Position numbers and translations under genes: made by a program
The notes under the pieces: generated by a model
Seen by the model: only the letters and a program-made list of their open reading frames with translations
Databases searched by the model: none
What the model was told of the DNA's origin: nothing
Part shown: one piece after another, positions 39,935 through 64,000 of the stretch
Layout of the letters: the number at the start of each line of letters is the position of its first letter
How positions within the stretch are numbered: position 1 is the first letter of the stretch
DNA from: an uncultured Bacteriovorax sp.
GTDB taxonomy: Bacteria > Bdellovibrionota > UBA1018
Length of the DNA stretch: 64,000 bases
Assembly (NCBI GenBank): GCA_964432565.1
Contig: CAYSOA010000004.1
Location: forward strand, 38,839 to 102,838
Reading direction: 5' to 3'

Positions 39935-40112
39935 ACCAACTTCAGATCGGTGAATTCTGCGACGGGCTTGATGAAATCCTTTTGACGCTCGGACCTTAAG
40001 AGCGCGCAATCGCAGAAAATTCTCCACAAATTCTTGGCAACTCAGGGCGGCAACGAAACTCAAGTCCAGGGAAGACACTTCCGAAAGGCACTCAGACAGA
40101 AGGAAACTGCAA

Positions 40113-47168: not shown

Positions 47169-47180
47169 TAGGAATCCGAC

Positions 47181-48596: not shown

Positions 48597-48669
48597 CTTT
48601 TTTGCTGGTTTTTTTACCTGTTTGCACCATTCCCGGTTTGCGGAATCGCCGTACTCATGGTCACTTGAG

Positions 48670-50046: not shown

Positions 50047-50067
50047 TGGACTGACGGTACCCCCCAG

Positions 50068-51396
50068 ATGAAGCCCCTGGAACTGAAACGCGCCCTTGGA
50101 AGCTTAGACGCCTCGGCCCTCGTGGTCGGGACCGTGATTGGTACCGGAGTGTTCCTCAAGACGACTCCCATGGCTCAGCTTCTGGGGTCCCCTCTTCTGG
50201 TACTTCTGGCCTGGACGGCGGCAGGTGCGCTTTCACTCATGGGGGCCCTCGTCTATTCGGAACTGGGAGCCATGCTGCCTGATGCAGGCGGCGAGTTCGT
50301 CTACCTCAAGAAAAGCTACGGAAAGGGCGTCGCATTCCTCTACGGCTGGCAGCGATTCTGGATCGGCGGACCGGGAACGATCGCAGCCTACGCCGTAGGG
50401 GCGGCCACCTTCGCTGTGGGGATCTGGCCGCTTTCGCTCGGCGCGCAGAAGGCACTGGCCGTTGGATTCATTCTTCTATTTTCCGGGCTCAACTGCCTGG
50501 CGGTGACCTTGGGTGGTCGAGTGCAGACGTCCCTGACCCTACTGAAGATGGGTCTCGTGGTGGGACTAGCCCTCGCGGCTCTCGCCTGGTCGGGAGGCGG
50601 CGACTGGAGTCGGTTGACCGCTCCAGTGGGTTCTCTCGGTCGCGATGCGACTTGGAGCAGCTTCGGCATGGCGATGATCGCGGCTCTGTGGGCATTCGAT
50701 GGCTGGAACAACCTACCGATGGCGGCAGGAGAAGTTCGGAGGCCAGAGCGCAGCCTGCCCATCGCACTAATCGGTGGGACGCTGGCCATTCTCGCCATCT
50801 ATGGCATCGCCAACATCGGCTACTTTTATGCTTTGCCGTTTGAAACCATCCTCGATCCCGGCGATCTCTCGGTTGCGGCGCGAGCTGCAGAGACCTTCAT
50901 GGGTCCGGCCGGAGTGATCTTTCTTTCCGTCGCTTTTGTCATCAGTGCAGTCGGTGCCATGAATGGTTCGGTGCTGACGGGTGCCCGCGTTCCCTACGCC
51001 ATGGCACGCGAGGGTCTGGCTCCCGCAGTCATCGGGAAAATCCACTCCGCATCCCAGGTTCCAGTGACTTCGGTGCTGATTCAGGGCGCCTGGGCGTGCC
51101 TGCTTGCCCTCTCGGGCACCTTCGAAATGCTCACCGACTGGGTCGTATTCTCCTCCTGGATCTTCTATGCTCTTTGCGGATTTGCAGTCATTCTGCTTCG
51201 TCGCAGGCTTCCGCAGCTCGCCCGCCCTTACCGCGTGCCCTTCTATCCGGTGCTCCCCGTTCTCTTTTGCATCCTCGCCACCGCGCTGCTCGTGAATTCG
51301 GTGATCGAACTTCCGAAGCAAAGCCTGTTTGGGCTGCTCTTCATCCTGACGGGATTGCCAGCGTACTGGCTTTTGCGAAGACTGCGTCCCAACTGA
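50068..51396 (+). CDS. amino acid permease (APC superfamily)
   Basis: It has 12 TM segments and APC-type motifs (VVGTVIGTGVF). Confidence 0.75.
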   Translation: MKPLELKRALGSLDASALVVGTVIGTGVFLKTTPMAQLLGSPLLVLLAWTAAGALSLMGALVYSELGAMLPDAGGEFVYLKKSYGKGVAFLYGWQRFWIGGPGTIAAYAVGAATFAVGIWPLSLGAQKALAVGFILLFSGLNCLAVTLGGRVQTSLTLLKMGLVVGLALAALAWSGGGDWSRLTAPVGSLGRDATWSSFGMAMIAALWAFDGWNNLPMAAGEVRRPERSLPIALIGGTLAILAIYGIANIGYFYALPFETILDPGDLSVAARAAETFMGPAGVIFLSVAFVISAVGAMNGSVLTGARVPYAMAREGLAPAVIGKIHSASQVPVTSVLIQGAWACLLALSGTFEMLTDWVVFSSWIFYALCGFAVILLRRRLPQLARPYRVPFYPVLPVLFCILATALLVNSVIELPKQSLFGLLFILTGLPAYWLLRRLRPN

Positions 51397-51481: not shown

Positions 51482-51796
51482 ATGATCCGAAATTTCGTCC
51501 TGACCGCTGTGACCCTGAGTGGCTGGCTGGTGGTCGCCCTCCTGCTGGTGCCCCAGGCGGAGGGCAGGAGAAAGGGGGGAAGCTGCGACAAGGAGCTCTC
51601 AGCACAATCCTCGAAGTGCGATGTCGAGATCAAGCGACTGACCGCCGACCTCCGAAGCCTCGATTCGAAAACGAGTGCCAGGATCGTAGAACTCGATCAG
51701 CGGGCCCGGGAGGCCGAAAAGAAAGCCAGCGTCGCCAACCAGCAGCTCAACGCCTGCCTGAACCACCTGCAGAAGGTCAGCAGCAGTCGAAGGTAG
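51482..51796 (+). CDS. small secreted coiled-coil protein (hypothetical)
   Basis: It has a signal peptide and a heptad-like charged region. Its 3' end overlaps the alternative upstream start of the next ORF. Confidence 0.4.
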   Translation: MIRNFVLTAVTLSGWLVVALLLVPQAEGRRKGGSCDKELSAQSSKCDVEIKRLTADLRSLDSKTSARIVELDQRAREAEKKASVANQQLNACLNHLQKVSSSRR

Positions 51797-51858
51797 CGGC
51801 TGCGCTGACTCGATCGGCCTCGATTCCTGTTTCGAGTTCTGCTACGCCGAACGCACGC

Positions 51859-52773
51859 ATGTATTTTCCCTTTGAAAAAGGCGCGTATGAGGTGGCCCCG
51901 GGCCTTCGACCCTTCGGCTCGGACTTGGGTGCCGGCAGGCTCGACCAGTGCGTGTTCCAATTCGATGAACACGCAGAGCTTTACCTTGCGAACAAGAAAG
52001 AGGGCCGATCCGAGCGGCTCTCGAAATACTTTCGTGCCGAGGGGCTGAATCCCGATCTCGAGGCCGCAGTCTGCAGCTGGATCGAGGGACGCCTCAAACA
52101 GGAGTGGCCCGAGCGATTCGCGGCGGACTTTCAGCCGAGACTTGCCGGGGTTGCCTCGCCCCTTGACGCCTGGGCTTCGCACGTCCCTGAAGACATTGCC
52201 GTCGTCCAGAAGACGAGCGGGTCGAATTTTCTGGTCGCCATCAGCCTGTTCAGCGCCAATCACTGGGGAGCTGAAGAGAAGATCGGTCGAGACTTCATTG
52301 CGATCCACAAGCCTGTCGCCGGCATCGAGAAGATCAACGCCAGCTCTCCGCAACTCATCGACGCCATGATCGCAAAAGGTCCCTACGTACGCTTCGCCTG
52401 GGGAATCGCCACCGACAGCCGCTTGAACCACCATCCCGAAACCCCCGAGGGAATCGACCCCGCCATCTGGGCCGGACGAAGTTTCGAGCCGACACTCGAC
52501 TCCCGTCCGAAGATTCGTTTTCCCGAAGTTCTTCCCGAATCGCAGGCACCGCTCTTCATTCGGGTCGAACGTCAGGTCCTTTGGGGCTTTCCTGAGTTCG
52601 ATGCCTTCGTCTTCACGATTCGCACCTATTTTCTCGACGGACTGGCGGTGAAGAACGACCCCGGGCGCAATGCGGCACTTCAGGCCGCCCTCGAGTCGAT
52701 GACACCACAAAGCCTCGCCTACAAGGGCCTGACCCAGACTCGGGGCCCCATTCTGAGCTGGCTTCGCTCGTAG
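51859..52773 (+). CDS. conserved hypothetical protein (304 aa from the MYFPF start)
   Basis: It shows good coding character, but its domain is unrecognised. The ORF extends upstream to a GTG at 51616, so the true start is uncertain. Confidence 0.5.
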   Translation: MYFPFEKGAYEVAPGLRPFGSDLGAGRLDQCVFQFDEHAELYLANKKEGRSERLSKYFRAEGLNPDLEAAVCSWIEGRLKQEWPERFAADFQPRLAGVASPLDAWASHVPEDIAVVQKTSGSNFLVAISLFSANHWGAEEKIGRDFIAIHKPVAGIEKINASSPQLIDAMIAKGPYVRFAWGIATDSRLNHHPETPEGIDPAIWAGRSFEPTLDSRPKIRFPEVLPESQAPLFIRVERQVLWGFPEFDAFVFTIRTYFLDGLAVKNDPGRNAALQAALESMTPQSLAYKGLTQTRGPILSWLRS

Positions 52774-52841
52774 CGAGCTGAGCTGAGCCGCTCCAGCCTC
52801 AAGACGAACTGAAAATAACACCATGAATTCAGCGGGTTCCC

Positions 52842-52863
52842 ATACCCGACTCTTTTTGTTTGC
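52842..52863 (+). promoter_or_regulatory. conserved 22-nt upstream element, copy 1 (ATACCCGACTCTTTTTGTTTGC)
   Basis: It is identical to the 22-mer at 61103..61124. Both copies lie 45-49 nt upstream of ATG starts and are followed by similar AT-rich leaders (TTAACwwTTAAGArGGTG). Confidence 0.55.
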
Positions 52864-52911
52864 TTTACTGCACTTTGTAAAGTTATCTTAACTTTAAGAA
52901 AGGTGCTCGCT

Positions 52912-53691
52912 ATGAAACGCTTCCTCCCCCTCGCTGCTGCTGTCATCGTCGTGGGCATCTTTCTCAAAAGCTCACAAAAGGAGCCTTCGGAACCCTCCAC
53001 CACCCCCACCGAGGCGGTTGATCTACCGGTTGCCGACCTCTCCGGCGAGGATCGGCCCTCTCAGACCCGCGAAGTCGGCGAGTCGGAGACCGTTCGACCT
53101 TCGTCGGTTGCTTCAAAAGAGCGCGGGACCGAACCGACCAAGCCTGCGACAAGCAGCATCCCTCCCCGGTCCTCCTGCTGGGCCGCGTCCTTTGAAATCA
53201 CCCGAAGCCTCAGCGCAGCGCAAAGGGAGTCCTTCGGCGAACGCGATCACCTTCTCGATCTCTCGGCCCTTCGCGAGCGGTTTCCCAAGTGGTCTTCGTC
53301 ACGGCTCTGCGTCCGTGCCGAAGGCCATGCTCTCTCCTTCGAGAAGGATTCGAAAAGAAGGGATCACGTCCGCATCCGCGGAGGCTCGGGCAGAATTCGT
53401 CCCGACAGCACCCTGAAGGCGAGCTACTGCTCCGAGAAGGCCATCGACTGCGCCCCCTGCGTCGTGGTCCAGGAGGATTTCGACTCTGCCCTCTTTGGAG
53501 AGTCGGCCGAGGACCAGGCCGAGAACGAAGAGTCGGACATTACCGCACAACTTTCTCCCGAGGTTCAGCGAGAGCTCGCCCGTCTCGAACGCGAAAGGGC
53601 TCCTGCGGCCATTGACCACTGGAAGACCCGTGAGGTCGGCTCGGATTGCACCCCCTCCCCGCGAGTCGCCCAACGTGGAGACCGTCACTGA
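52912..53691 (+). CDS. hypothetical secreted protein, first gene of the Agl/Glt-like cluster
   Basis: There is a signal or anchor helix (MKRFLPLAAAVIVVGIFL) and several Cys residues. Its stop overlaps the next start (TGATG). Confidence 0.5.
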   Translation: MKRFLPLAAAVIVVGIFLKSSQKEPSEPSTTPTEAVDLPVADLSGEDRPSQTREVGESETVRPSSVASKERGTEPTKPATSSIPPRSSCWAASFEITRSLSAAQRESFGERDHLLDLSALRERFPKWSSSRLCVRAEGHALSFEKDSKRRDHVRIRGGSGRIRPDSTLKASYCSEKAIDCAPCVVVQEDFDSALFGESAEDQAENEESDITAQLSPEVQRELARLERERAPAAIDHWKTREVGSDCTPSPRVAQRGDRH

Positions 53692-55391
53692 TGAAGCGCG
53701 CACGCCCACTACGAGTGCTCTCGGGTCTTACCGGAATTCGAAGCCTTGCGCTCGCCGGCAGCTTCGCGCTCCTCTCCCTCTCCGGCTGTACCGAGCAGCT
53801 TCCGGGAAGCTTTCGTTACAAACAGCAGCTCGAAGTCTTTTCGACCAGCCAGGAGGTCAACACCTCCATTGATCTGCTCTGGGTGGTCGACAACTCGGCC
53901 AGCATGGATGTCAGCCAGAAGAAGCTGCGCGATGGATTTTCTGCCTTCGCCCGCGCCTATCTCAAACCCACCTGGGACATCCGTCTGGCCGTGATCACGA
54001 CCGACACCTACCTCGCCCACGCCGCATTCGACGGCTACCTGAATACCGTGATCCCCGGAACCGTCGGCTGGAGGTCGAATCATATCGCCCAGCGTTCGGT
54101 GGATTTCGTCAATCCTGAGCGGATCCCGAACCTTTGGGACAACGCCACGAAGACCTTTCCCAACGGAGTTCGTTATGGCGATATCTCGCCCGTCTGGGGC
54201 TCGAACTGGGCACGACTCATCCCTGGAATTCATGATGGTCCGATGACCACGCTCTGCTCCGAGCTTCTGCCCTACTTTCTCAAGGGCACGTCTCTCTGCT
54301 CCTCGAGAGACCAAATTCTCCCCGCTACGGCCGAAGCAGATGGACTGCGCCCCTGCGTGAGCCCCGATTCCGGAGCTGGAGAATCGAGCGTCACTTCCTG
54401 CATCAATACGACCCAGGTCGACGTCCTGCACACTCAAAGTCCGATCCTCGAAACCCAGCCGCCAACAGGCGTGCCCGCAGATGAGGCGTGGGTGGATGCA
54501 TTGGTTGAAAGGTTTCTCGTCAATGCCAGCGTCGGCAGTTCGGGCCAGGGTTCTGAACGCGGCATCAGCTCGGTACTGCAGCTTCTGGCCGACAACGAGA
54601 GCACCGAAACCCGCTTCTTTCGTCCGGGATCCCTACGCGGCATCCTGTTCATGAGCGATGAGGACGATCAGTCGATGGATCTCTCGCTTGCCACTCCCGG
54701 AACCACCCCACAGACTCACTATCAGTGCGACCAGGAGCGCCTTGCCGAACTCAATCCCGGTGACTCACGGGTGACGACCAGCTGTCCGACCCTCTCCAGT
54801 CGCTGTCCCGAAAAGGTGATCGACGGGTTCAGCTACCGTGTTTCTTACTGTCCGGCAGAGTCCGCCCCCCTGCTGTCGGTCGCCTCTGCAAAACAGCAGC
54901 TCGACACGTTCTTCACCGAGCTGGACGAAGGCACCCAGCCCCAGCCCAATTACTTCGTTGCCGCCATCATCCCCACCTCGGCCGCGGCGATCCAGCAGCT
55001 TCAGGAGGGCCGAGTCAGCGAGGACTCGGCTGTCGGGGCGCTTAAAAACTGGGCCGTCGACCGGGGTGACCGCTACCTCGAACTGGTCGAACGCGTGAAC
55101 AACGGCTCGCTGGCCCTGAATATCGCCGAATCCGACTACACGCCCATTCTCGAAACCATCGGCCGCACGATCGTCTCCAAAAAGGCAACGTTCAAGCTGC
55201 AACGAGAACCCAGCTCACTCGAAGAATTGATGATCTGGGTTCGCCATAACGACGAAACCCGCACGCTGATTTCAGACGAGCAGTTTTCGATCGAAGGAAC
55301 CACGCTCCGGATCACGGACCTTGATCTGGTGCTTTCGCTCGTCTCCACGGATCGGATCGTCATCGACTACCAGCCCAAGAACCTCAAATAA
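53691..55391 (+). CDS. Cys-rich von Willebrand factor A domain lipoprotein (CglB-like candidate adhesin)
   Basis: The lipobox reads LSLSGC and a VWA MIDAS motif is present (LLWVVDNSASM). There are more than 14 Cys residues across the 567 aa. Confidence 0.6.
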   Translation: MKRARPLRVLSGLTGIRSLALAGSFALLSLSGCTEQLPGSFRYKQQLEVFSTSQEVNTSIDLLWVVDNSASMDVSQKKLRDGFSAFARAYLKPTWDIRLAVITTDTYLAHAAFDGYLNTVIPGTVGWRSNHIAQRSVDFVNPERIPNLWDNATKTFPNGVRYGDISPVWGSNWARLIPGIHDGPMTTLCSELLPYFLKGTSLCSSRDQILPATAEADGLRPCVSPDSGAGESSVTSCINTTQVDVLHTQSPILETQPPTGVPADEAWVDALVERFLVNASVGSSGQGSERGISSVLQLLADNESTETRFFRPGSLRGILFMSDEDDQSMDLSLATPGTTPQTHYQCDQERLAELNPGDSRVTTSCPTLSSRCPEKVIDGFSYRVSYCPAESAPLLSVASAKQQLDTFFTELDEGTQPQPNYFVAAIIPTSAAAIQQLQEGRVSEDSAVGALKNWAVDRGDRYLELVERVNNGSLALNIAESDYTPILETIGRTIVSKKATFKLQREPSSLEELMIWVRHNDETRTLISDEQFSIEGTTLRITDLDLVLSLVSTDRIVIDYQPKNLK

Positions 55392-55409
55392 CCAAAAAGG
55401 AGAATGAAC

Positions 55410-56066
55410 ATGGACTTCCTCACCTTCCTCAAAGACCACTGGATGCACGTCGCCCCCATCCTGCTCGCCGCCGCATTTGCCGTAGCCATCGTGATCGAAA
55501 GGTTCCAAACGCTGTACCGAAGCTATCCGATGAAGGACACACACGGCTTCTTCGATCAAATCGGTCGCCACGTCATTGATGGAAACGTCCAGGGGGCCTT
55601 GTCCCACTGCGAGCAACAGGGGCAGAAGCCCGTTGCCGTCGTCGTCAAACAGGCCCTTTTGAGGGCTCAGCAGCCCGAAGCCCTCATCGAGAGCGCTCTC
55701 GAGATCAGCATCCATGAGGCGCAGCAGTCGATTCAAAGGCGAACTGCCTTTCTCTCGACCATCGCCAATGTCGCAACGCTTCTCGGTCTTTTCGGAACGA
55801 TCGCCGGCTTGATCAGTTCGTTTGAGGCAGTCGGTGCTGCCGACCCACAGCAGAAGTCGGCACTCCTTGCTGCCGGCATCTCCACGGCAATGAATGCCAC
55901 GATGATGGGACTTGCCGTTGCGATTCCCTGCATGGTGGCCTTCAGTTTCCTCATGAGCCAGAGCAATCGGGTCATGGCCGAGGTCGAACAAGGCGCAGTT
56001 CGCATCCTCGATCTTCTCAAGCAGCGCTATTATCGGGTGCAGAGCGAAGTTCGGGAGGCCGCATGA
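55410..56066 (+). CDS. MotA/TolQ/ExbB-family proton channel (AglR-like)
   Basis: It has 3 TM segments and the ExbB/TolQ signature region (LSTIANVATLLGLFGTIAGLISSF...AMNATMMGLAVAIP). Confidence 0.8.
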   Translation: MDFLTFLKDHWMHVAPILLAAAFAVAIVIERFQTLYRSYPMKDTHGFFDQIGRHVIDGNVQGALSHCEQQGQKPVAVVVKQALLRAQQPEALIESALEISIHEAQQSIQRRTAFLSTIANVATLLGLFGTIAGLISSFEAVGAADPQQKSALLAAGISTAMNATMMGLAVAIPCMVAFSFLMSQSNRVMAEVEQGAVRILDLLKQRYYRVQSEVREAA

Positions 56067-56515
56067 TGTCGCCCGGTTCAGGAAGCGATGGTCAGGACTT
56101 CGAACTGAACCTCGCAAGCATCATCGACTGTCTCACGGTCATCATCGCCTTCCTCCTGCTTTCATCCTCCTTCGTGTCCTATGGGGCACTCGACACGGCC
56201 GTCGCCGCACCACAGAGTTCCCAAACAGCGGACGGAAGCGAGGAACGACCCCAGAGCCTCACCTTGTCGGTGAAAATTCTGGAGGACGACCGGGTGGAGC
56301 TCGAGATCTCAGGAAAGCGAACTGAAAAGAGAAGGATCGCCCGGGACTCGCTTCGCACCGAACTACAGGCTCTGAAGGCGAAATATCCGGGTTTAGAGGG
56401 AATGGTTCTCTCAGCCGGCCCTCGCCTGCCTTACCGAGAGGTGATTCGAGGCATGGACGAGGCACGCACGATTTTTCCGGCAGTAGCGCTGGGCCTTTCG
56501 GGAGGTCGACAATGA
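56063..56515 (+). CDS. ExbD/TolR-family protein (AglQ/S-like), copy 1
   Basis: It has a single TM with the conserved Asp (LASIIDCLTVIIAFLL) and a 4-nt overlap with the upstream gene. Confidence 0.75.
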   Translation: MMSPGSGSDGQDFELNLASIIDCLTVIIAFLLLSSSFVSYGALDTAVAAPQSSQTADGSEERPQSLTLSVKILEDDRVELEISGKRTEKRRIARDSLRTELQALKAKYPGLEGMVLSAGPRLPYREVIRGMDEARTIFPAVALGLSGGRQ

Positions 56516-56973
56516 AGCGATTTCTGAAGAAGAAGAATAAGCCGCAGTCGACCGAAATGAGCCTGCAGATCACATCGATGGCCGATATCTTTACGATCCT
56601 GCTGGTCTTCCTCTTGAAATCGTATTCGGTCGGCGCCCTCGAAGTGCAACCGAGTCGTGGGCTCGAGCTGCCTGTCGCCCAGAGATCGGATACAGCCGAA
56701 TCCAGAATCGCGCTGGAAGTCTCCGAAAACTCGGTTCAGCTCGATGGCACTCCCGTTCTTCCCCTGAAACACTTCGAGCTTGAAGGTGCAACGCGCCTCG
56801 AGCCGTTGGGAAGGGCGCTTTCGGAGAAACTTGCCGCCCTCGGAGAGGCATCTCAGGGCAAGTTGATTCTGGTTGCGGATGCCCGAGTCCCCTTCGAGAC
56901 GCTCGAAACTCTGATGGCGACGGCCGCAGGTCAGGGCTTCTCAGACCTCAAGCTGGCGGTGGTGCAGCCATGA
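56512..56973 (+). CDS. ExbD/TolR-family protein (AglQ/S-like), copy 2
   Basis: It has a TM with the conserved Asp (MADIFTILLVFLL) and its start overlaps the upstream stop. Confidence 0.75.
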   Translation: MKRFLKKKNKPQSTEMSLQITSMADIFTILLVFLLKSYSVGALEVQPSRGLELPVAQRSDTAESRIALEVSENSVQLDGTPVLPLKHFELEGATRLEPLGRALSEKLAALGEASQGKLILVADARVPFETLETLMATAAGQGFSDLKLAVVQP

Positions 56974-59861
56974 CGCATCCCACGCTCCTGAGGCTGGTCC
57001 TCAGCCTGAGCCTCTGCCTGATTCTCTCGCCCATCAGTGTGTGCGCAGGCTCCAGCGACGAGATGACGCTTCGAAACGTTTCGAATGCGGAACGCGAAAA
57101 AATCGATCGGCTCGTCGATCGAGCCGCCCTCGAATCTCAGAGGCGAGCCATCGAGCAGATCGAAACACTCTTGACGCGCTACCGGAACACGGACCGTGAA
57201 GAGATGCTTCTCGCAAAACTGGGCGACCTGCGACAACAACGCGCCCAGATCGAGTTTCGCCTCGGCCAGCACAGCCGCGATGAGTCCTCCTATCGAAGGT
57301 CACTCTCCGAAGCGATTCGCACGTTCGACGAGGTGCTACGCCGTTTTCCAGAATCCGAACAGGTACCCCGGGTTCTTTCGTGGCGCGCCAGGGCCCATGC
57401 CGACCTCACGGCGCACGCCCTGGCCGAGAAGGATTTCGTCCGTCTGATCCAAAAATACCCCGAGTCTCCGGAGTCTGAATCCGCCCGAATGGCGCTTGCC
57501 GGCTATGCCGCCGAACGGGGCGATCACGCACGCGCCCTCGCCGTGCTCACGCCCCTGGCCTCACGGCCGGAATCCCCATTTCATCCTTTCGCCCTGCACC
57601 AAATGGCCTGGGCGGCGTTCAATCGCGAAGACATTCCCTCGGCGATCGATTATGCGCGCCGAAACGTCGAAGCCCTTCGCCACAGAAGGCAGGAGAGCCG
57701 ACTGAGCTCGAGTGATGAGGCCCTTCTTGAAAACACCCTGCTCGACGTTGCCACCTTCGAGGCGGATCGTGTCGAAAAGATGGCCAATCCGCCCTCGGCC
57801 CAGGAGATTTTCAAAACATTTCAGTCGCTATCCCCCGGTTCACGGATGCCCGCCATGGCGCTTCGCCTGGCCAAGCTGCTGCGCGCACATGATCAGTCGC
57901 GGCTTCTTGCCCAGTGGGGCGCGCTTGCCTGGCAGCACCTTCCCGAGTCCGGCGCCAGTGCAGAAATCGACCTCCTGCTTCGAGAATATGCCCATGGTCG
58001 CCGCGACTTCGTAACGCTTCTTGCGCCGCTTCCCGAGGTGGCTCGAACCGCGAAGAATTCCGCACTCGAGGGCCATCGCAGGCTATATTCGAAGGTCGCG
58101 ACCGAGCTTCACGAGCTTCTATCGAGGAATTCCGGCGCCTCGGTAGAAAAATCCAAACCATGGATTGAAAGGCTGGGGGCCGCCTATGAGCGTTTTCTCG
58201 AGATCACTCCGGCTTCGGATCCCAGAAACTTTCAGGCACGCCTGAATCTCGCCGAGGCATTCGTGGCCCTGAATGAGCTCGATCGTGCCATTCCGCTGTA
58301 TCGAGCCATCGTTGACTCTCAGGAATGGAGCAATGCCGCCGTGATCCGATCGAGCCTCGGATCGATTCGCTCTCGCCTCGAAAAGCTGAAGCAGGAAGGC
58401 GTCATGCCTGAGAAGATCACCCTGGCGGCCTTCGATCGGGAGCTCGACTCCGACCCGCGCATCCTCGAGCTTCTGGCATGGATCGACATGCATCTCTCAC
58501 ACGACAAGAACGGCGAATTCATCACGATGCTGCGCTTCGAGCGAGCCAAGATCCTCTATCGACTCGGACGACGATCAGAATCCCATCTCGCACTCGAGTC
58601 GGTCATCGACACCGCCCCAGACTCAACGGACGCCGGCGGGGCCCTCGCCCTGCTGCTGGACAGTGAGTTCTTTTCGGGTGACCTGCCGTCCCTGAAAAAA
58701 AGAATCGGGGAGCTCCAGAGAAGGCGCGCCCTCTCGTCAAACGCAAGCGCCACCCAGATAATCACTCAGGCAACCCTTCGCCTCGATGTTCTGCTCATGA
58801 ACCACACAGTCGATCCAGGAAACGCCCGCCTTGCGCGCGATCGCCTGCTGGCACGCGGGGACGCTCCGCAGGAGGTTCGAGACGCCGCACTCATCGATCG
58901 GGCACGAGAGCTGGACCTGAACGGAAATCCTGCCAATGCACTGGAGATGCTTCAAAAGGCCTCAAATCCGGAATCACGGGCGCCCGCCCTGCTTCTTCTT
59001 GCCTATGCCTCTGAGAACTGGACGGCCCTTTCTGAAATCTTGCGAACGCAGTGTGATCCGAAGGTGTCGATCTGCGCCCAGTTTTCGCAGTGGATGCGCT
59101 CACGCAATGCACCGAGGACCTCAAATCTCGTCGCTGAGCTGCGCAGGATTTCGAAATCTACCGGAACCGAACAATTGCTCTCCGTGCTGCCACTGCTGAC
59201 CCACCAGAAGAAGTTGGGCTATCGCGATCGCAACCTGTTGATTCGGCTGTCATCAAAGGGCTGGAACGACCTTCTTCCGATCATCCAGTGGGAAGCGCTT
59301 GCGCCGGCCATTGAGGGACTCGAAGCGGCACTCCAGAGCAGCCGTGAGCAGATCCGCCGTCAGTCGCCGCTGAGTGCCACCCAGAAAAGCGAGGCCCACC
59401 TCGTTCATCGAATGGATGTGATTCGGGAATTCGAAAACACGATCAGAGCAGCCCTGCAGATTCCGATTTTTGAGATTCAGGTTTCAGCGCTCCAGCAGCA
59501 CGCCGCCGCCATGCAGGACTTCAGCGAGGACATCGGCCGAATCGAAAACCTGCCCGCAGCAGTCCGATCGGAGATCGAAGCTCGTGCAAGCGAACTACGC
59601 CAGATTGCTGATCAACGCTCGTCCGCGCTGGCTCAGTCGGTCGCCGCGGGAGAGGCATTCATCGCCGGCAACCCGCAGCTCACCACGACGATGCCGATCA
59701 GCAGGGCCCGCAAACGGTGGTTCTTCGAAAACGCCGCAACGCTTTCTGAAACGCAGCAGGCGCTTTGGCTGGGTTGGATTCTCTGGAATTCGGGCGCGAA
59801 GCATGCCGCCTCCAGCGAGTGGGAGAAAGTGAAGCCGACGGTCACAGCGGCCAATCAGTGA
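56970..59861 (+). CDS. large secreted tetratricopeptide-repeat protein (963 aa; GltD/GltE-like candidate)
   Basis: A signal peptide is followed by degenerate 34-aa helical repeats (A..Y....G....A) throughout. Its start overlaps the ExbD stop (ATGA). Confidence 0.65.
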   Translation: MTHPTLLRLVLSLSLCLILSPISVCAGSSDEMTLRNVSNAEREKIDRLVDRAALESQRRAIEQIETLLTRYRNTDREEMLLAKLGDLRQQRAQIEFRLGQHSRDESSYRRSLSEAIRTFDEVLRRFPESEQVPRVLSWRARAHADLTAHALAEKDFVRLIQKYPESPESESARMALAGYAAERGDHARALAVLTPLASRPESPFHPFALHQMAWAAFNREDIPSAIDYARRNVEALRHRRQESRLSSSDEALLENTLLDVATFEADRVEKMANPPSAQEIFKTFQSLSPGSRMPAMALRLAKLLRAHDQSRLLAQWGALAWQHLPESGASAEIDLLLREYAHGRRDFVTLLAPLPEVARTAKNSALEGHRRLYSKVATELHELLSRNSGASVEKSKPWIERLGAAYERFLEITPASDPRNFQARLNLAEAFVALNELDRAIPLYRAIVDSQEWSNAAVIRSSLGSIRSRLEKLKQEGVMPEKITLAAFDRELDSDPRILELLAWIDMHLSHDKNGEFITMLRFERAKILYRLGRRSESHLALESVIDTAPDSTDAGGALALLLDSEFFSGDLPSLKKRIGELQRRRALSSNASATQIITQATLRLDVLLMNHTVDPGNARLARDRLLARGDAPQEVRDAALIDRARELDLNGNPANALEMLQKASNPESRAPALLLLAYASENWTALSEILRTQCDPKVSICAQFSQWMRSRNAPRTSNLVAELRRISKSTGTEQLLSVLPLLTHQKKLGYRDRNLLIRLSSKGWNDLLPIIQWEALAPAIEGLEAALQSSREQIRRQSPLSATQKSEAHLVHRMDVIREFENTIRAALQIPIFEIQVSALQQHAAAMQDFSEDIGRIENLPAAVRSEIEARASELRQIADQRSSALAQSVAAGEAFIAGNPQLTTTMPISRARKRWFFENAATLSETQQALWLGWILWNSGAKHAASSEWEKVKPTVTAANQ

Positions 59862-59928
59862 CAGAAGCGAAATCGCATCACTGCCGCGGCTCTTGATTTT
59901 CGGATGGGCAGTTGAGACGACAGACAGC

Positions 59929-61124: not shown

Positions 61125-61168
61125 AAAGCCTCTTTTTGTTAGTTTTAATTAACAATTAAGAGGTGACC

Positions 61169-61438
61169 ATGCTTTCTTCTCTCACCCCGACGATTCTAGT
61201 TCTGGCACTGATCCTCTCCCCTCAGGCGGTTGCCGGCTCGCGAGAAAAGGTCATCGATTTCGAGGACGCAGTGGTCGAGGGCGTCAACCGAAAGCCCTAC
61301 GACTCCCTGCAGGCCCTGTCTGAAAAGGAGCGCCGCAGTCGCCGCGCGCACCTCTACCATCGACGACTCAGCTTTCAGTCCGAAATTGAAGAAACCCTTC
61401 GCGAACGTGCACTCGAGCACGAAGGAGGCGGATCATGA
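61169..61438 (+). CDS. small secreted protein (hypothetical)
   Basis: A signal peptide (LTPTILVLALILSPQAVAG) is followed by a charged region. Its stop overlaps the next start (ATGA). Confidence 0.45.
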   Translation: MLSSLTPTILVLALILSPQAVAGSREKVIDFEDAVVEGVNRKPYDSLQALSEKERRSRRAHLYHRRLSFQSEIEETLRERALEHEGGGS

Positions 61439-62502
61439 ACGCTTCGCCCGATCGCCCTCTGATCGTTCGCATCCACGCTGCCGGAGGAACCCTCAGTGAA
61501 CTGTGGGATACGAATACCCCCCTATCCGTCGGTCACCCCCTCCGATGGGTGCTCGAATTCCTCAAAACGCCGGAGCGGCTGCGACTCACGGACACGCGCT
61601 CGTCCCTGCGCGTCGAGCAGGCCGTCACCGGAAGTGCCTCCGCCGGAGACGGCCTGCTCGCCGAATTTCCGCTAGGAACATCAGGACGAATCGCGATCTA
61701 TCGCGAAAACGCGGCGGGCTTTTCGAGCGTCACGACCAATGAAGAGCTGGGCTCGAGCCTCCACGAAACCCAGTTTCGCAGATCGGCGATTCGCAGCGTC
61801 GCACTCCTGGGTGCGGCCCTCCTCATCCTTCCCCTGATTCGCCCGGGCAGTCGCGAGCTCATCACCCGCGCCCCCGTTCAGGTCGTCGACCTCTCGAAGT
61901 TGGCCCAGGCTGCGGCAAAACCCAAGGCAAGGGGCGGCTCCGGTGGCGTGGCATCCAGGCTGCGAGCACTCGTCTCCGGTTCGCGCTCCCGCTGGCTTTC
62001 TCGATCTCCCGCCAGCACCCTGTCAGGACGATTCAGTGAAAAATACGCGGCCAACTTCGGCAATATGGCGTCCGCCCCCTCGCTGGGCCTTTCTGCTCTC
62101 GGAAAGTCCGGCTACTCGGGCTCGCTCGGAAGCGCTGGCTCGAGCGGCGGCACGGCGGGACGCAACTGGGTCGACCTCGACTCTCTTGCCGCCACCGTCG
62201 AGGAGGGCCTGACCCGAGACGAGGTGGGTCAGGTGATCCATAAGCACATGAAGGAGATTCGCTACTGCTACGAAACAGCCATGATTCGCTCGCCGGATCT
62301 CGAAGGAAAGCTCGTCGTCGAGTTCACGATCGGCCGTCAGGGTGCCGTCCGAAGCTCGGGAGTACGCACCTCCAGTGTTCCGGACCAGCGACTCGACGAC
62401 TGCGTTCTTTCACGCCTCGTGGCCTGGAAGTTCCCGCAACCCAAGGGCGGAATTGAAGTCGCCGTCACCTACCCGTTCATCTTCAAATCACTCGGGAAAT
62501 GA
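61435..62502 (+). CDS. bitopic membrane protein with a TonB-C-terminal-like domain (GltG/GltJ- or AgmX-like)
   Basis: A cytoplasmic N-domain and a TM helix (AIRSVALLGAALLILPLI) are followed by a Gly/Ser linker. The C-terminal ~90 aa (YCYETAMIRSPDLEGKLVVEFTIGRQGAV...DDCVLSRLVAWKFPQP...YPFIF) is TonB_C-like. Confidence 0.6.
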   Translation: MNASPDRPLIVRIHAAGGTLSELWDTNTPLSVGHPLRWVLEFLKTPERLRLTDTRSSLRVEQAVTGSASAGDGLLAEFPLGTSGRIAIYRENAAGFSSVTTNEELGSSLHETQFRRSAIRSVALLGAALLILPLIRPGSRELITRAPVQVVDLSKLAQAAAKPKARGGSGGVASRLRALVSGSRSRWLSRSPASTLSGRFSEKYAANFGNMASAPSLGLSALGKSGYSGSLGSAGSSGGTAGRNWVDLDSLAATVEEGLTRDEVGQVIHKHMKEIRYCYETAMIRSPDLEGKLVVEFTIGRQGAVRSSGVRTSSVPDQRLDDCVLSRLVAWKFPQPKGGIEVAVTYPFIFKSLGK

Positions 62503-63275
62503 CCATGATGAATACCGCTCTCAGCATCAAAATGGCCCTACTGCTCACACTAGTGATACCCGCCGTTCCGGCCTTGGGCGACGAGCCCCCCCCCACGGGA
62601 ACGCCAGAAACAAGCCACGAAGACCTCTCACCCGAAGCAGAGGAGCTCGAACGCATCAAGCAGCGCTACTGGGCGCAGGGAAACGAAAAAGAAATGGGCG
62701 TCGTCCAGAATCGCCTCTTCACCAAGGAAGGGCGTTTCGAAACCACGCTTTTCGGTGGCCTCCTCATCTCCGATCCATTCGTCAATACGTTCACGCCGGG
62801 GCTCTCGTTCGGCTACAACTTCGATGAAACCTTCTCGCTGCATGCCTTCGGATGGAAGGCTCTCGCCACACCATCGGCCGCCCTCGTCACGCTTCGGCAG
62901 GGGGAAAAGGAAGCCAATACCAATCCCACGTCCGCACTTTTCGGGACCGAGGGCCGTGCCAGCCTGCTCTATGGCAAGCTCAGTCTGCTCGGCAGGAAGA
63001 TACTGTACTACGACATGCACGCAGGCCTGGGCGCTGCCATCGTTCGCGCCGAGAACGGACTCTACGGTGGCCCCCTGATATCGGTCGGACAAAGTTTCTT
63101 TTTTTCGAACTCCATGACCTTTCGCATCGATTACCGGCTGATCGTCTACCGGGAGAACATCACCCAGAAAGAAGGGACCGAGGAGCAGCTCGGAAGGATC
63201 ATCGACCAGAGAAACAATTTTTCGAATTCCCTGACCTTCGGGATCAGCATCCTTTTTGGAGGATCGAATCGATGA
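62499..63275 (+). CDS. outer-membrane beta-barrel protein (GltA/B/H-like candidate)
   Basis: A signal peptide is followed by alternating beta-strand pattern with aromatic girdle residues (FGYNF, LLYGKLSL, TFGISILFGG). The gene is coupled to its neighbours by ATGA overlaps. Confidence 0.55.
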   Translation: MTMMNTALSIKMALLLTLVIPAVPALGDEPPPTGTPETSHEDLSPEAEELERIKQRYWAQGNEKEMGVVQNRLFTKEGRFETTLFGGLLISDPFVNTFTPGLSFGYNFDETFSLHAFGWKALATPSAALVTLRQGEKEANTNPTSALFGTEGRASLLYGKLSLLGRKILYYDMHAGLGAAIVRAENGLYGGPLISVGQSFFFSNSMTFRIDYRLIVYRENITQKEGTEEQLGRIIDQRNNFSNSLTFGISILFGGSNR

Positions 63276-64000
63276 ACACCAAGAATGCACGAGCATCCCT
63301 GATCGTTCTCTCGCTGCTGCTCGCCCCCCGGTCCTTCGCCGGCATCGACTGCCGTCGAGACGTTCCCACTCGATCCCCGGCCATCGACCTCGCCCTGGGG
63401 CTACAGTCTCGCCTCAGGGCGACATCACCCTCGGACCGAAAGTCGGCTGAACTTCAGATCGCAAATGCCCTGCACCAGTCCGGAATCATACGCCCTGCTC
63501 ACGCAGCCTATCGAGCGATACTCCGCTCAAACGAAGCGGCACCCACCGACCGTCTCTCGGCCATGACCTGCCTGAACCGCATCGAGCGAGTCGAGCCTGC
63601 CCTGGCGATGGAACTCCCTTTGACGTTTCTCACGTCCGTCGCCTCGCTCTCATCGACCGATGGCGAGCATCAGAGTGAGGGCGCGGAGTTCGTTTTTCGC
63701 CGGTTTCTGATCGCCCTGCGCGATGACACCAGAAGGGCTACTGCAATCCAAGCCCTGCTTGCCGAACGATTCGCCGCTCGTGCAGAGACCCAGGCGGGCC
63801 GCGCCTTTCTTCTGGCCAACGAAAAGAAGCCCATCGAAGCGGCGAAACTGCTGGAAGAGCTGCTTTCGAAACCTCGGCTGCCGGAAGGAGCCGAACGCCA
63901 CCGAAACGCCCTGATGCTGCTGGCAGGACGAACCGCCTTCGCAGGCGGACGCCCGCTCGATGCGGCTCGCTGGTACCGTTCGATCGAAAAGTCCTCGAAC
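63272..64000 (+). CDS. secreted TPR-like helical repeat protein, 5' fragment (continues past the window end)
   Basis: I translated from the ATG at 63272 and the frame is open to base 64000. A signal peptide (LIVLSLLLAPRSFAG) is followed by an Ala/Leu-rich helical repeat region. Confidence 0.5.
   Translation, partial: MNTKNARASLIVLSLLLAPRSFAGIDCRRDVPTRSPAIDLALGLQSRLRATSPSDRKSAELQIANALHQSGIIRPAHAAYRAILRSNEAAPTDRLSAMTCLNRIERVEPALAMELPLTFLTSVASLSSTDGEHQSEGAEFVFRRFLIALRDDTRRATAIQALLAERFAARAETQAGRAFLLANEKKPIEAAKLLEELLSKPRLPEGAERHRNALMLLAGRTAFAGGRPLDAARWYRSIEKSSN

What the first reader, a model, noticed from the sequence alone, without database searches (positions are those of the whole stretch)
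53691..55391. Cys-rich VWA lipoprotein as a candidate surface adhesin (CglB-like)
The lipobox is followed by an intact MIDAS motif (DNSAS) and then about 480 aa with many paired Cys residues (for example CSELL..., SCINTT, YQCDQ, TSCPTLSSRCPEK, SYCPAE). The gene sits immediately upstream of the MotA/ExbD motor genes and is coupled to the preceding secreted protein. In Myxococcus, the VWA lipoprotein CglB is the substratum-binding adhesin of the gliding complex. A homolog here would be the cargo that this motor exposes.
Basis: inference. Interest (0 to 1): 0.6.

Follow-up and report, generated by a model that had tools for sequence, protein, structure and literature searches.

The report
Integrin-like lipoprotein in a gliding-motor operon
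This gene encodes a lipid-anchored, integrin-β-like metal-site (VWA/MIDAS) protein that, with a small partner gene, heads a Myxococcus-type gliding-motor operon in predatory Bdellovibrio-group bacteria, which makes it a good candidate for their still-unidentified gliding adhesin.

Summary
Window 53691-55391 (+) is a real 566-aa gene with a lipobox (Cys33), an invariant DNSAS motif and 8 conserved mature cysteines. It overlaps the preceding ORF by one base and ends 12 nt before MotA/ExbB-ExbD-ExbD genes.

- **Family:** about 560 aa, unannotated, found almost only in Bdellovibrionota. It is homologous over its full length to short (about 370 aa) MIDAS lipoproteins of the Bd0875/Bd1483 kind (hhalign E 2e-51). 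It differs by two inserts of about 140 and 57 aa, which carry all 8 cysteines.
- **Relation to CglB:** it is not a CglB orthologue. None of 40 members hit the CglB model. It weakly matches the Bd0875 and CglD VWA models.
- **Context:** the neighbours form an Agl-Glt-type gliding cluster (GltG-like, myxo-type OM barrel, TPR proteins). In 46 of 57 related loci the motor gene follows directly. A novel partner protein precedes it in 51 of 59 loci.
- **Reading:** most likely the outer-membrane adhesin or terminal element of this gliding machine. Surface exposure is untested.

It is a new variant of a known kind, of moderate interest.

The parts
52912..53691 (+). Partner gene (259 aa from ATG 52912; a GTG at 52903 is also possible). 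It has an N-terminal membrane anchor, a Pro/Thr/Ser-rich linker, and a C-terminal domain of about 170 aa with conserved Cys and an acidic (P)KDEF-type motif (QEDF in this window). It is the first gene of the operon.
   Evidence: - Its stop overlaps the start of the VWA gene.
- An iterated HMM finds the same family directly upstream of the VWA gene in 51 of 59 loci, including the 4 loci where the pair sits at the other end of the cluster.
- Alignment A2 shows the anchor, linker and domain layout. Some members carry a lipobox instead of a TM anchor.
- No Pfam or NCBIfam hit.
- A terminator-like hairpin at 52833-52848 and an AT-rich gap precede it.
53691..55391 (+). VWA/MIDAS lipoprotein, 566 aa (the finding).
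53691..53789 (+). Lipoprotein signal peptide ending in the lipobox LSLSG-C33. Residue +2 is Thr, not Asp, so by the E. coli sorting rule it is not retained in the inner membrane.
   Evidence: Sequence. C33 and T34 are invariant in 40 of 40 homologues.
53787..53840 (+). Unusually conserved N-terminal tether of the mature protein (residues 33-50, consensus CTGQLPGSFRxxQQxQxF).
   Evidence: - Mean top-residue frequency is 0.74, higher than most of the folded protein.
- pLDDT is low at residues 43-49.
- Inferred docking segment, by analogy with the CglB N-terminal strands that pair with GltK/GltA/GltB (PMC11761067).
53889..53903 (+). MIDAS loop 1: D67-N-S69-A-S71, directly after strand β1 (residues 59-66).
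   Evidence: D67, N68, S69 and S71 are invariant. Position in the model.
53991..54011 (+). VITTDTY (residues 101-107) at the end of strand β2, with T104 and D105 invariant. It aligns with the CglD region that includes T693, one of the residues proposed for the CglD MIDAS.
   Evidence: The CglD model match covers residues 46-107 against CglD 634-691. CglD MIDAS residues are from bioRxiv 10.1101/2023.10.19.562135.
54024..54440 (+). Family-specific insert 1 (about residues 112-250), containing C189, C203, C222 and C237. It follows β2, the position of the specificity-determining loop in integrin βI domains.
   Evidence: - Unaligned in hhalign against the short-form relatives.
- pLDDT about 90 or more.
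- 16 invariant residues.
- The placement on the MIDAS face is inferred from VWA topology.
54549..54563 (+). G-S288-E289-R-G, immediately before helix 291-302. This is the position of the MIDAS Thr in canonical VWA domains (Glu in integrin β).
   Evidence: G285, G287, S288, E289, R290 and G291 are invariant. Secondary structure. The role is inferred.
54654..54674 (+). S-D323-E324-D-D326-Q-S after strand β4 (residues 315-321). This is the MIDAS Asp loop.
   Evidence: D323, E324, D326 and Q327 are invariant. The same motif (SDEEDQS) occurs across the wider superfamily.
54699..54869 (+). Family-specific insert 2 (about residues 337-393), containing C346, C365, C372 and C387. It follows the MIDAS Asp loop.
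   Evidence: hhalign gap against the short forms. Cys conservation.
55185..55388 (+). C-terminal β domain (residues 499-566). Together with the N-terminal strand 51-55 it forms a small β-rich domain into which the VWA domain is inserted, arranged like the hybrid domain of integrin β.
   Evidence: Model secondary structure. Aligned with the C-terminal domain of the short forms. Foldseek alignments to integrin β headpieces span about 520-540 columns.
55404..56066 (+). MotA/TolQ/ExbB-type proton channel (AglR-like).
   Evidence: PF01618, 1.2e-27. TolQ model, 1.7e-21, below cutoff.
56063..56515 (+). ExbD/TolR-type subunit 1 (AglQ/S-like), with a TM Asp at position 22.
   Evidence: PF02472, 3.5e-13. 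Sequence.
56512..56973 (+). ExbD/TolR-type subunit 2 (AglQ/S-like), with a TM Asp at position 25.
   Evidence: PF02472, 5.3e-13. Sequence.
56970..59861 (+). 963-aa periplasmic TPR protein at the GltD position.
   Evidence: TPR, YbgF and BamD-like hits. Conserved position in related loci.
61163..61438 (+). 91-aa secreted protein at the GltF/CglF position.
   Evidence: Weak CglF hit at E 0.021. Conserved position.
61435..62502 (+). GltG-like TonB-type transducer.
   Evidence: - NF033760 gliding_GltG, 1.8e-36, partial.
- AgmX/PglI C-terminal domain, 107 bits against a cutoff of 40.
- TonB_C.
- All.
62499..63275 (+). Outer-membrane β-barrel of the myxobacterial type (GltA/B/H-like).
   Evidence: TIGR04565 OMP_myx_plus, 70.5 bits against a cutoff of 60.
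63272..64000 (+). Start of a secreted TPR-like protein at the GltC position. It runs off the end of the window.
   Evidence: Translation. The L001 protein at the same position matches gliding_GltC at 3.7e-13.

Best explanation
The gene encodes an outer-membrane-targeted lipoprotein whose body is an integrin-β-like headpiece. [quoted passage not shown]

Two family-specific inserts (about 140 and 57 aa) emerge from loops on the MIDAS face. Each is probably stapled by two disulfides.

The gene is co-transcribed and translationally coupled with a small membrane-tethered partner protein. The pair heads an operon encoding an Agl-Glt-type gliding machine:
- an AglR-like proton channel and two TolR/ExbD-like subunits;
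- a GltD-like TPR protein and a GltF-like peptide;
- a GltG-like TonB-type transducer;
- a myxo-type OM barrel and a GltC-like TPR protein.

The most likely function is the outer-membrane end of this machine. In this reading it is a MIDAS adhesin held by the OM barrel/TPR platform through its conserved N-terminal tether and β domain. It would bind the substratum, or a prey surface, through a metal-bridged acidic ligand. The proton-driven motor would then pull against it via GltG and the periplasmic TPR proteins, in the way CglB (and CglD) work in Myxococcus.

**Shown here:** the gene, the lipobox, the VWA fold, MIDAS conservation, homology to the Bd0875-type lipoproteins and the CglD VWA, and the conserved operon context.

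**Inferred:** OM localisation, surface exposure, disulfides, ligand binding and coupling to the motor.
For: **The protein**
- Lipobox with invariant Cys and Thr at +2.
- AF2 model with pLDDT 88.3 and pTM 0.86.
- The Foldseek top 50 are all integrin β headpieces, E 1.7e-7 to 5e-5, probability 1.00, about 530 aligned columns.
- All 40 family members hit the Bdellovibrio 'MIDAS family adhesin' model, and 38 of 40 hit the CglD VWA region.
- hhalign to short-form MIDAS lipoproteins gives probability 100% and E 2.4e-51 over the full length.
- MIDAS residues and all 8 Cys are invariant or nearly so.

**The neighbours**
- GltG-like protein, 1.8e-36, with the AgmX/PglI domain above cutoff.
- OMP_myx_plus barrel above cutoff.
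- MotA_ExbB and two ExbD genes, both with the TM Asp.
- GltC-like and GYF proteins in L001.
- All.

**Synteny**
- ExbB lies directly downstream in 46 of 57 loci. In 4 more the gene is in the same cluster.
- Gene overlaps indicate a single operon.

**Literature**
- In B. bacteriovorus the MIDAS lipoprotein Bd1483 lies in the gliding cluster next to aglR (Bd1481). A transposon insertion in it reduced biofilm predation (PMC2277423, PMC11003981).
- Bd0875 was detected at the predator-prey contact site by immunofluorescence, and its function needed D66 of the MIDAS (PMC11003981).
- CglB and CglD are VWA lipoprotein adhesins of the Myxococcus machine (PMC9946355; bioRxiv 10.1101/2023.10.19.562135).
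Against: - No experiment or computation here shows surface exposure. By default OM lipoproteins face the periplasm.
- The whole protein, including both inserts and the tether, is under even, strong purifying selection. This fits a machine part that binds conserved partners at least as well as an environment-facing adhesin.
- Seven of 57 loci carry a family member with no motor gene in the available flank, for example L009/L082 next to a sigma-54 two-component system.
- Deleting Bd1483 gave no predation phenotype in liquid culture (PMC11003981). No gliding phenotype is reported for it in the papers read here.
- The model coordinates could not be inspected. MIDAS geometry, disulfide pairing and placement of the inserts therefore rest on topology and conservation only.
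Confidence: 0.55

Rival explanations
1. The protein is a periplasm-facing coupling element and not an adhesin. It stays on the inner leaflet of the outer membrane. Its MIDAS binds an acidic motif of another machine protein, for example the conserved (P)KDEF or acidic tail of the co-encoded partner, or a Glt protein. In this role it would link the envelope-spanning transducer to the OM platform, rather like Pal in Tol-Pal.
For: - Default lipoprotein topology.
- Uniform strong conservation of the inserts and tether.
- An obligate, co-moving partner gene with a membrane anchor, a long Pro/Thr-rich linker and a conserved acidic motif.
Against: - The closest characterised relatives (Bd0875, CglB, CglD) are reported as surface-exposed adhesins (PMC11003981, PMC9946355, bioRxiv 10.1101/2023.10.19.562135).
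- Related cluster-associated short forms (L074, L076, L079) carry long PT/G-rich stalks between the lipid anchor and the VWA domain, an architecture typical of proteins that project from a surface.
Confidence: 0.28
2. It is a prey-contact or invasion adhesin, as Bd0875 is. It would be used during predation and not for gliding, and merely co-located with a motor cluster.
For: - Sequence relationship to the Bd0875-type model in 40 of 40 members.
- Bd0875 has a cap next to its MIDAS that is thought to give partner specificity (PMC11003981). The two inserts here occupy comparable MIDAS-face loops.
- Some paralogues are unlinked to motors.
Against: - Tight operon structure and conserved adjacency to the motor in 46 of 57 loci, plus 4 more in the same cluster, argue for a shared function with the motor.
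- The match to NF052240 is 32.7 bits against a cutoff of 700, so it is not a Bd0875 equivalent.
Confidence: 0.1
3. It is a BatA/BatB- or CoxE-type housekeeping VWA protein that is unrelated to motility.
Against: - Only 1 of 40 members touches a BatB model, at E 0.12.
- There is no MoxR ATPase or Bat operon nearby.
- Foldseek ranks integrin β headpieces first.
- The conserved context is a gliding cluster.
Confidence: 0.02

Closest known systems
Bd0875 / Bd1483 MIDAS-family lipoprotein adhesins of Bdellovibrio bacteriovorus (NCBIfam NF052240; PMC11003981)
   Same: [quoted passage not shown]
- Same sequence superfamily: 40 of 40 members hit NF052240, and there is full-length profile homology to short forms that also hit it.
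- Bd1483 also lies in a gliding cluster next to aglR (PMC2277423).
- Bd0875 has a MIDAS-flanking cap. Here two larger inserts occupy comparable MIDAS-face loops.
   Different: - About 190 aa longer, because of two disulfide-bearing inserts (about 112-250 and 337-393).
- Scores 32.7 bits against a cutoff of 700, so it is not an equivalog.
- Directly precedes the motor genes.
- Preceded by a dedicated partner gene in 51 of 59 loci.
- The short forms examined (P0273, P0257) are not next to motors.
CglB, the VWA outer-membrane lipoprotein adhesin of the Myxococcus xanthus Agl-Glt gliding machine (NF033757; PMC9946355, PMC11761067)
   Same: - Lipoprotein with a VWA domain, MIDAS, an accessory β domain and structural disulfides.
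- Genetically tied to an Agl-Glt machine.
- CglB docks to an OM lipoprotein partner (GltK) and to barrels through its N-terminal strands. Here the N-terminal tether is highly conserved and a partner gene is co-encoded.
   Different: - No detectable sequence match to the CglB model in 0 of 40 members.
- The fold is closest to integrin β headpieces, whereas CglB is described as αI-like.
- 1.5% Cys against 4.1% in CglB.
- The papers read place cglB outside the M1, G1 and G2 gene sets. Here the gene is the second gene of the motor operon.
CglD, the β-integrin-like gliding adhesin of M. xanthus (NF033765; bioRxiv 10.1101/2023.10.19.562135)
   Same: - Integrin-βI-like VWA with the same motifs (WVVDxSxSM, TTD, SDEEDQS).
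- 38 of 40 members match the CglD VWA region.
- Lipoprotein with disulfides.
   Different: - CglD is 1130 aa, with COMP-like Ca2+-binding and EGF-like modules that are absent here.
- The match is 25.8 bits against a cutoff of 400.
- cglD is never encoded in gliding clusters (same preprint).
Integrin β-subunit headpiece (βI domain inserted in the hybrid domain)
   Same: - Best structural match.
- A VWA domain inserted in a β-sandwich made of flanking segments.
- A DxSxSM MIDAS loop.
- A large loop after β2, at the position of the specificity-determining loop.
- An acidic residue next to the position of the MIDAS Thr.
   Different: - About 9-12% sequence identity, and low TM-scores (0.24-0.30).
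- No α subunit, PSI or EGF domains.
- Bacterial lipid anchor.
- The similarity is one of architecture, not demonstrated common descent.

Membership tests
CglB (NCBIfam NF033757, equivalog) | Sequence match to the CglB model at or above its cutoff (200 bits) | tested here: not met
   No hit for the window protein at E<=10. None of 40 family members hit at E<=1. The model is in the library, since it gave marginal hits to other proteins.
CglB | Lipoprotein signal with a conserved lipobox Cys | tested here: met
   LSLSGC, with C33 invariant.
CglB | VWA domain with a conserved MIDAS (DxSxS...T...D) | tested here: met
CglB | Integrin αI-like VWA with an N-terminal β-jellyroll/propeller domain | tested here: not met
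   The best structural matches are integrin β headpieces. The accessory β domain is built from both N- and C-terminal segments.
CglB | High Cys content (about 4%) forming loop-stapling disulfides | tested here: inconclusive
   The mature chain has 8 Cys (1.5%). All are conserved and all lie in the two inserts. Pairing was not verified.
CglB | Co-occurrence with a complete Agl-Glt machinery | tested here: met
   Encoded in the same operon as Agl/Glt-like genes. This is conserved in 46 of 57 loci, plus 4 in the same cluster.
CglB | Surface exposure at focal adhesions and requirement for gliding | not testable with these tools
   Needs genetics, protease shaving and microscopy.
MIDAS family adhesin, Bd0875 type (NCBIfam NF052240, equivalog) | Score at or above the cutoff (700 bits) | tested here: not met
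   32.7 bits, covering residues 58-119 only. The best member reaches E 1e-13.
MIDAS-lipoprotein superfamily (Bd0875/Bd1483-like) | [quoted passage not shown] | tested here: met
   Model. hhalign to 30 short forms: probability 100%, E 2.4e-51, residues 12-567 against 10-357. All 30 short forms hit NF052240 at up to 4e-27.
CglD (NCBIfam NF033765) | Score at or above the cutoff (400 bits), with COMP-like Ca2+-binding and EGF-like modules | tested here: not met
   25.8 bits, restricted to the VWA N-terminal region. The protein is 566 aa with no such modules.
VWA domain (Pfam PF00092 / PF13519) | Pfam sequence match above the gathering score | tested here: not met
   No Pfam hit at E<=0.01. Relatives give only sub-threshold VWA hits. 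The fold-level match is clear.
Agl-Glt gliding cluster (context) | TolQ/ExbB-like channel plus two TolR/ExbD-like subunits with a TM Asp | tested here: met
Agl-Glt gliding cluster (context) | GltG-type TonB-like transducer | tested here: met
   AgmX/PglI C-terminal domain at 107 bits against a cutoff of 40. The match to gliding_GltG is partial: 125.9 bits, below the equivalog cutoff of 650.
Agl-Glt gliding cluster (context) | Myxo-type OM β-barrel(s) | tested here: met
   TIGR04565, 70.5 bits against a cutoff of 60.
Agl-Glt gliding cluster (context) | GltD, GltF and GltC equivalents | tested here: inconclusive
   - TPR proteins and a small secreted protein sit at the right positions.
- CglF hit at E 0.021.
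- GltC hit at 49 bits in L001, against a cutoff of 450.
BatA/BatB aerotolerance VWA proteins | Match to Bat models and a Bat/MoxR operon context | tested here: not met
   Only 1 of 40 members hits a Bat model, at E 0.12. No such neighbours are present.

The most novel reading that the evidence does not exclude
The partner and the VWA lipoprotein could form a self-contained latch. The partner is tethered by a membrane anchor and a long Pro/Thr-rich linker. Its conserved acidic (P)KDEF motif or acidic tail would insert into the MIDAS as an internal pseudo-ligand, keeping the integrin-β-like headpiece masked or closed.

Force from the Agl motor would pull the partner off, or swing the β domain as in integrin hybrid-domain swing-out, so that the adhesin is exposed and activated only at engaged sites. 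That would be an integrin-style, force-gated activation mechanism encoded as a two-gene module at the head of a bacterial gliding operon.
Probability: 0.12. Interest if true: 0.8.

Novelty: new variant of a known kind. Interest (0 to 1): 0.5.

Why it matters

This family gives a concrete and widely conserved candidate for the adhesin end of that machine.
- It is encoded in the motor operon itself, unlike cglD, which is never found in gliding clusters, and cglB, which the papers read place outside the M1, G1 and G2 gene sets.
- It comes with a previously undescribed partner protein in 51 of 59 loci.
- It extends the integrin-like VWA adhesin theme from Myxococcus to the sister predatory phylum.
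- It shows a long-form architecture, with two disulfide-bearing inserts on the MIDAS face, that no curated model describes.
- It points to simple tests in culturable relatives: deletion, a D67A change, protease shaving and a DTT shift.

It is not a surprise in kind, because Bd1483 was already noted in a gliding cluster and later recognised as a MIDAS lipoprotein.

Tried and rejected
- **Pfam scan of the target:** no hit at E<=0.01.
- **Sequence search of the PDB:** no hit at E<=1.
- **AFDB50 fold library:** not available, so no comparison with AlphaFold models of CglB, Bd1483 or Bd0875 was possible.
- **Direct alignment to CglB, Bd1483 or Bd0875:** I could not obtain these sequences. I used the NCBIfam models NF033757, NF052240 and NF033765 as proxies.
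- **Naming short-form relatives:** cluster look-up gave only 'hypothetical protein'.
- **Identifying the source contig:** the 100%-identical partner protein gave only a 2.5-kb Logan contig. The organism is inferred as Bdellovibrionota from the best relatives.
- **Promoter scan:** no sigma-70 consensus upstream of the operon, only an AT-rich gap and a terminator-like hairpin.
- **Model coordinates:** Cys-Cys distances, MIDAS geometry and insert placement could not be measured.
- **Rejected readings:** Bat-type VWA, a CglB orthologue, and 'Cys-rich' as a compositional claim.
Full report
**1. The observation**

The ORF at 53691-55391 (+) encodes 566 aa.
- Its ATG overlaps the TGA of the preceding ORF by one base (TGATG at 53689-53693).
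- The N-terminus, MKRARPLRVLSGLTGIRSLALAGSFALLSLSG-C33, is a lipoprotein signal. C33 and T34 are invariant in 40 aligned homologues.
- DNSAS lies at residues 67-71, with D67, N68, S69 and S71 invariant.
There are only 8 Cys in the mature chain (1.5%), so 'Cys-rich' overstates the case. All 8 are invariant or nearly so, and most homologues have 10. This fits 4-5 structural disulfides in an exported protein.
- MotA_ExbB starts 12 nt after the stop codon. ExbD, ExbD and a 963-aa TPR gene follow, each joined by a 4-nt overlap.
- A terminator-like hairpin (52833-52848) and an AT-rich gap precede the upstream partner gene. The partner and this gene therefore open the operon.

**2. What the protein is**

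Sequence libraries say little.
- There is no Pfam hit and no PDB sequence hit.
- The only NCBIfam hits are weak and N-terminal: the Bdellovibrio 'MIDAS family adhesin' model NF052240 (32.7 bits, cutoff 700) and the VWA region of CglD (25.8 bits).

The family itself is well defined.
- 210 proteins were found at E<=1e-3 among the scored candidates. The best 120 are mostly about 510-590 aa, and the sources give them no name or only 'hypothetical protein'.
- In a scan of species-representative genomes, 72 of the 77 distinct loci returned carry a family member. Nearly all of these come from Bdellovibrionota MAGs (Bdellovibrionia, Bacteriovoracaceae, Oligoflexia).
- An exhaustive profile search gives 96 cluster representatives at E<=1e-30 and 5213 at E<=1e-3. 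This family is therefore the long-form branch of a large superfamily.

An AlphaFold2 model built on 40 sequences is confident (pLDDT 88.3, pTM 0.86).
- In Foldseek the top 50 hits are all integrin β-subunit headpieces (E 1.7e-7 to 5e-5, probability 1.00, about 530 alignment columns).
- This matches the architecture seen in the model: a VWA domain inserted into a small β domain built from strand 51-55 and residues 499-566. The integrin βI domain is inserted into the hybrid domain in the same way.

A profile-profile comparison with 30 short (about 370 aa) relatives gives probability 100% and E 2.4e-51 across the full length.
- It defines two inserts specific to this family, at about 112-250 and 337-393.
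- All 8 mature Cys lie in these inserts.
- Insert 1 follows strand β2 (VITTD), which is the position of the specificity-determining loop in integrin β.
- Insert 2 follows the SDEDDQS loop after β4.
- By VWA topology both emerge on the MIDAS face. This is an inference, because the coordinates could not be inspected.

The invariant residues fit a complete MIDAS, possibly with integrin-β-like neighbouring metal sites.
- These residues are D67, S69, S71, T104/D105, S288/E289 and D323/E324/D326.
- The CglD preprint proposes D656, S658, S660, T693/T761 and D799 as its MIDAS residues. The alignment maps the first four onto the N-terminal motifs here. D799 plausibly corresponds to D323, by the shared SDEEDQS-type motif, which is an inference.

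**3. Membership**
- NCBIfam holds a CglB model (NF033757). It gave marginal hits to other proteins. Neither the window protein (E<=10) nor any of 40 family members (E<=1) matches it.
- In contrast, 40 of 40 members match NF052240 and 38 of 40 match the CglD VWA region. All 30 short forms match NF052240 at up to 4e-27.
- The protein therefore belongs to the MIDAS-lipoprotein superfamily that includes Bd0875/Bd1483 and the CglD βI-like module. It is not a CglB orthologue.
- It is not an equivalog of any curated model.

**4. Context**

The neighbours identify an Agl-Glt-type gliding cluster.

| Window position | Protein | Evidence |
|---|---|---|
| 55404-56973 | MotA/ExbB plus two ExbD proteins, both with the TM Asp | |
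| 56970-59861 | Long TPR protein at the GltD position | |
| 61163-61438 | 91-aa protein with a weak CglF/GltF hit (E 0.021) | |
| 61435-62502 | GltG-like protein (1.8e-36; AgmX/PglI C-terminal domain 107 bits, cutoff 40) | |
| 62499-63275 | OMP_myx_plus barrel (70.5 bits, cutoff 60) | |
| 63272-64000 | TPR ORF at the GltC position, running off the window | |

In the related locus L001 the next genes are a GltC-like protein (3.7e-13) and a GYF-domain protein.

I checked synteny by tblastn over 80 related loci.
- Among 57 non-redundant loci with sequence downstream, 46 have ExbB within 200 nt.
- In 4 loci the gene is in the same cluster but about 3.3 kb beyond the barrel gene.
- Seven show no motor gene in the flank, which was only 0.8-2.4 kb for three of them. 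One of these, L009/L082, sits next to a sigma-54 two-component system.
- More divergent forms of about 460-490 aa (30-34% identity) that lack insert 1 also sit directly upstream of ExbB (L067-L069, L072).
- A different short form, with a long PT/G-rich stalk, heads another cluster type two genes before ExbB (L074).
- Two short forms from the wider superfamily are not next to motors.

**5. The partner**

The upstream ORF (259 aa from 52912) has an N-terminal membrane anchor, a low-complexity Pro/Thr/Ser-rich linker, and a conserved Cys-containing C-terminal domain.
- That domain carries an acidic (P)KDEF-type motif followed by an acidic, helical tail ending in a conserved Trp.
- Some orthologues have a lipobox in place of the TM anchor.
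- An iterated HMM finds this family immediately upstream of the VWA gene in 51 of 59 loci. This includes the 4 loci where the pair has moved to the other end of the cluster, so the two genes travel together.
- It has no Pfam or NCBIfam family.
- It may play the role that the lipoprotein GltK plays for CglB, which is docking and exposure (PMC11761067). Alternatively it may supply an acidic ligand for the MIDAS. Both ideas are inferences.

**6. Literature**
[quoted passage not shown] A transposon insertion in Bd1483 reduced biofilm predation (PMC2277423).
- Bd1483 was later described as a lipobox-bearing MIDAS protein whose VWA domain is inserted into a small N/C-terminal β domain. It is the protein most similar to the invasion adhesin Bd0875. 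Its deletion gave no predation defect in liquid culture (PMC11003981).
- Luciano et al. found four expanded Agl/Glt core sets in Bdellovibrio and described CglB as restricted to Myxococcales (PMC3169522).
- cglD is never encoded in gliding clusters (bioRxiv 10.1101/2023.10.19.562135).
- A 2026 review calls the Bdellovibrio gliding motor, adhesins and force transmission an open challenge (PMC13104615).

**7. Mechanism**

The best-supported reading, at about 0.55, runs as follows.
- The protein is an OM lipoprotein (Thr at +2). Its conserved tether (residues 33-50) and its β domain dock onto the barrel/TPR platform.
- Its MIDAS face, framed by the two disulfide-stapled inserts, binds an acidic ligand on the substratum or prey surface.
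- The AglR-plus-two-ExbD motor pulls on it through GltG and the periplasmic TPR proteins.

The main rival, at about 0.28, is a periplasm-facing coupling element whose MIDAS binds the partner or another Glt protein. The even, strong conservation of the inserts and tether fits that reading at least as well. Two further rivals are less likely: a Bd0875-like prey-entry adhesin (about 0.1) and a Bat-type VWA protein (about 0.02).

**8. Verdict**
The functional analogy to CglB and the motor linkage hold. The homology to CglB and the 'Cys-rich' label do not.
- It is a new variant of a known kind: VWA/MIDAS lipoprotein adhesins of gliding and predatory bacteria.
- What is new is its long-form, integrin-β-like architecture, a conserved novel partner, and its placement at the head of the motor operon.
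- Interest is 0.5.

Noticed in passing
window 59893-61053 (+); L004 8358-9578 (-): A GH26 (β-mannanase-type) gene sits inside the gliding operon, between the GltD-like TPR gene and the GltF-like gene (Pfam 3e-36). It has no counterpart in any related locus. The closest relative, L004, has an unrelated gene on the opposite strand at the same spot; by eye it looks like a multi-pass membrane transporter, but it was not scanned. This junction appears to be a variable insertion point in this sub-clade.
   Followed up: partly
window 52912-53691: The partner protein family has no Pfam or NCBIfam model and no structural neighbour. It alternates between a TM anchor and a lipobox among orthologues, and carries a conserved acidic (P)KDEF motif.
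   Followed up: yes
window 53787-53840: The N-terminal tether of the mature lipoprotein (CTGQLPGSFR...) is more conserved than most of the folded domain. This is unusual for a flexible lipoprotein linker and suggests a docking strand.
   Followed up: partly
window 43195-48596 and 51616-52773; L002 2754-8257; L004, L006, L008: - A 2-oxoglutarate dehydrogenase operon (E1, E2, E3) lies upstream of the gliding cluster here and also in L002.
- A HODM_asu-like gene directly precedes the cluster here and in L004, L006 and L008.
- In the window, two amino-acid transporters (48622-51396) are wedged between the two.
   Followed up: no
window 36028-40216 (-): A chemosensory gene set (CheB, CheR and a CheA-CheW fusion) lies on the opposite strand about 13 kb upstream of the gliding operon. 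Its relation to gliding control was not examined.
   Followed up: no
L020 + L031 (MEPR01, GWB1_55_8); L036 + L047 (MEPO01, GWA1_52_35): Single MAGs carry two complete copies of the partner-VWA-motor cluster, with VWA proteins 44-48% identical to the query. This echoes the multiple Agl/Glt sets reported for B. bacteriovorus.
   Followed up: no
L074 9440-18771; also L076, L079: A second cluster type was found. A short-form VWA lipoprotein with a long PT- or G-rich stalk between the lipid anchor and the VWA domain is followed by two unknown genes and then ExbB-ExbD-ExbD-TPR.
   Followed up: partly
L022 (JAGTJX010000003.1, labelled Lysobacteraceae MAG, 982-kb contig): A full copy of the cluster (VWA 46% identical) occurs on a contig labelled Lysobacteraceae. 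This is either a mis-assigned bin or a transfer outside Bdellovibrionota.
   Followed up: no
L073 10010-11122; L077 9215-10837; L078 3486-7019; L080 3638-4972: Proteins on contigs labelled Myxococcota (L073, L077) or 'Rickettsiales' (L078, L080) share the WVVDxSxSM / TTD / SDEEDQS motifs. Some are fused to choice-of-anchor-D/HYDIN-type Ig repeats. This VWA subtype is widespread and largely without curated models.
   Followed up: partly
window 40719-43058 (+): A glucodextranase-N plus GH15 glucoamylase-type gene. Together with the GH26 gene it hints at polysaccharide use by this organism.
   Followed up: no
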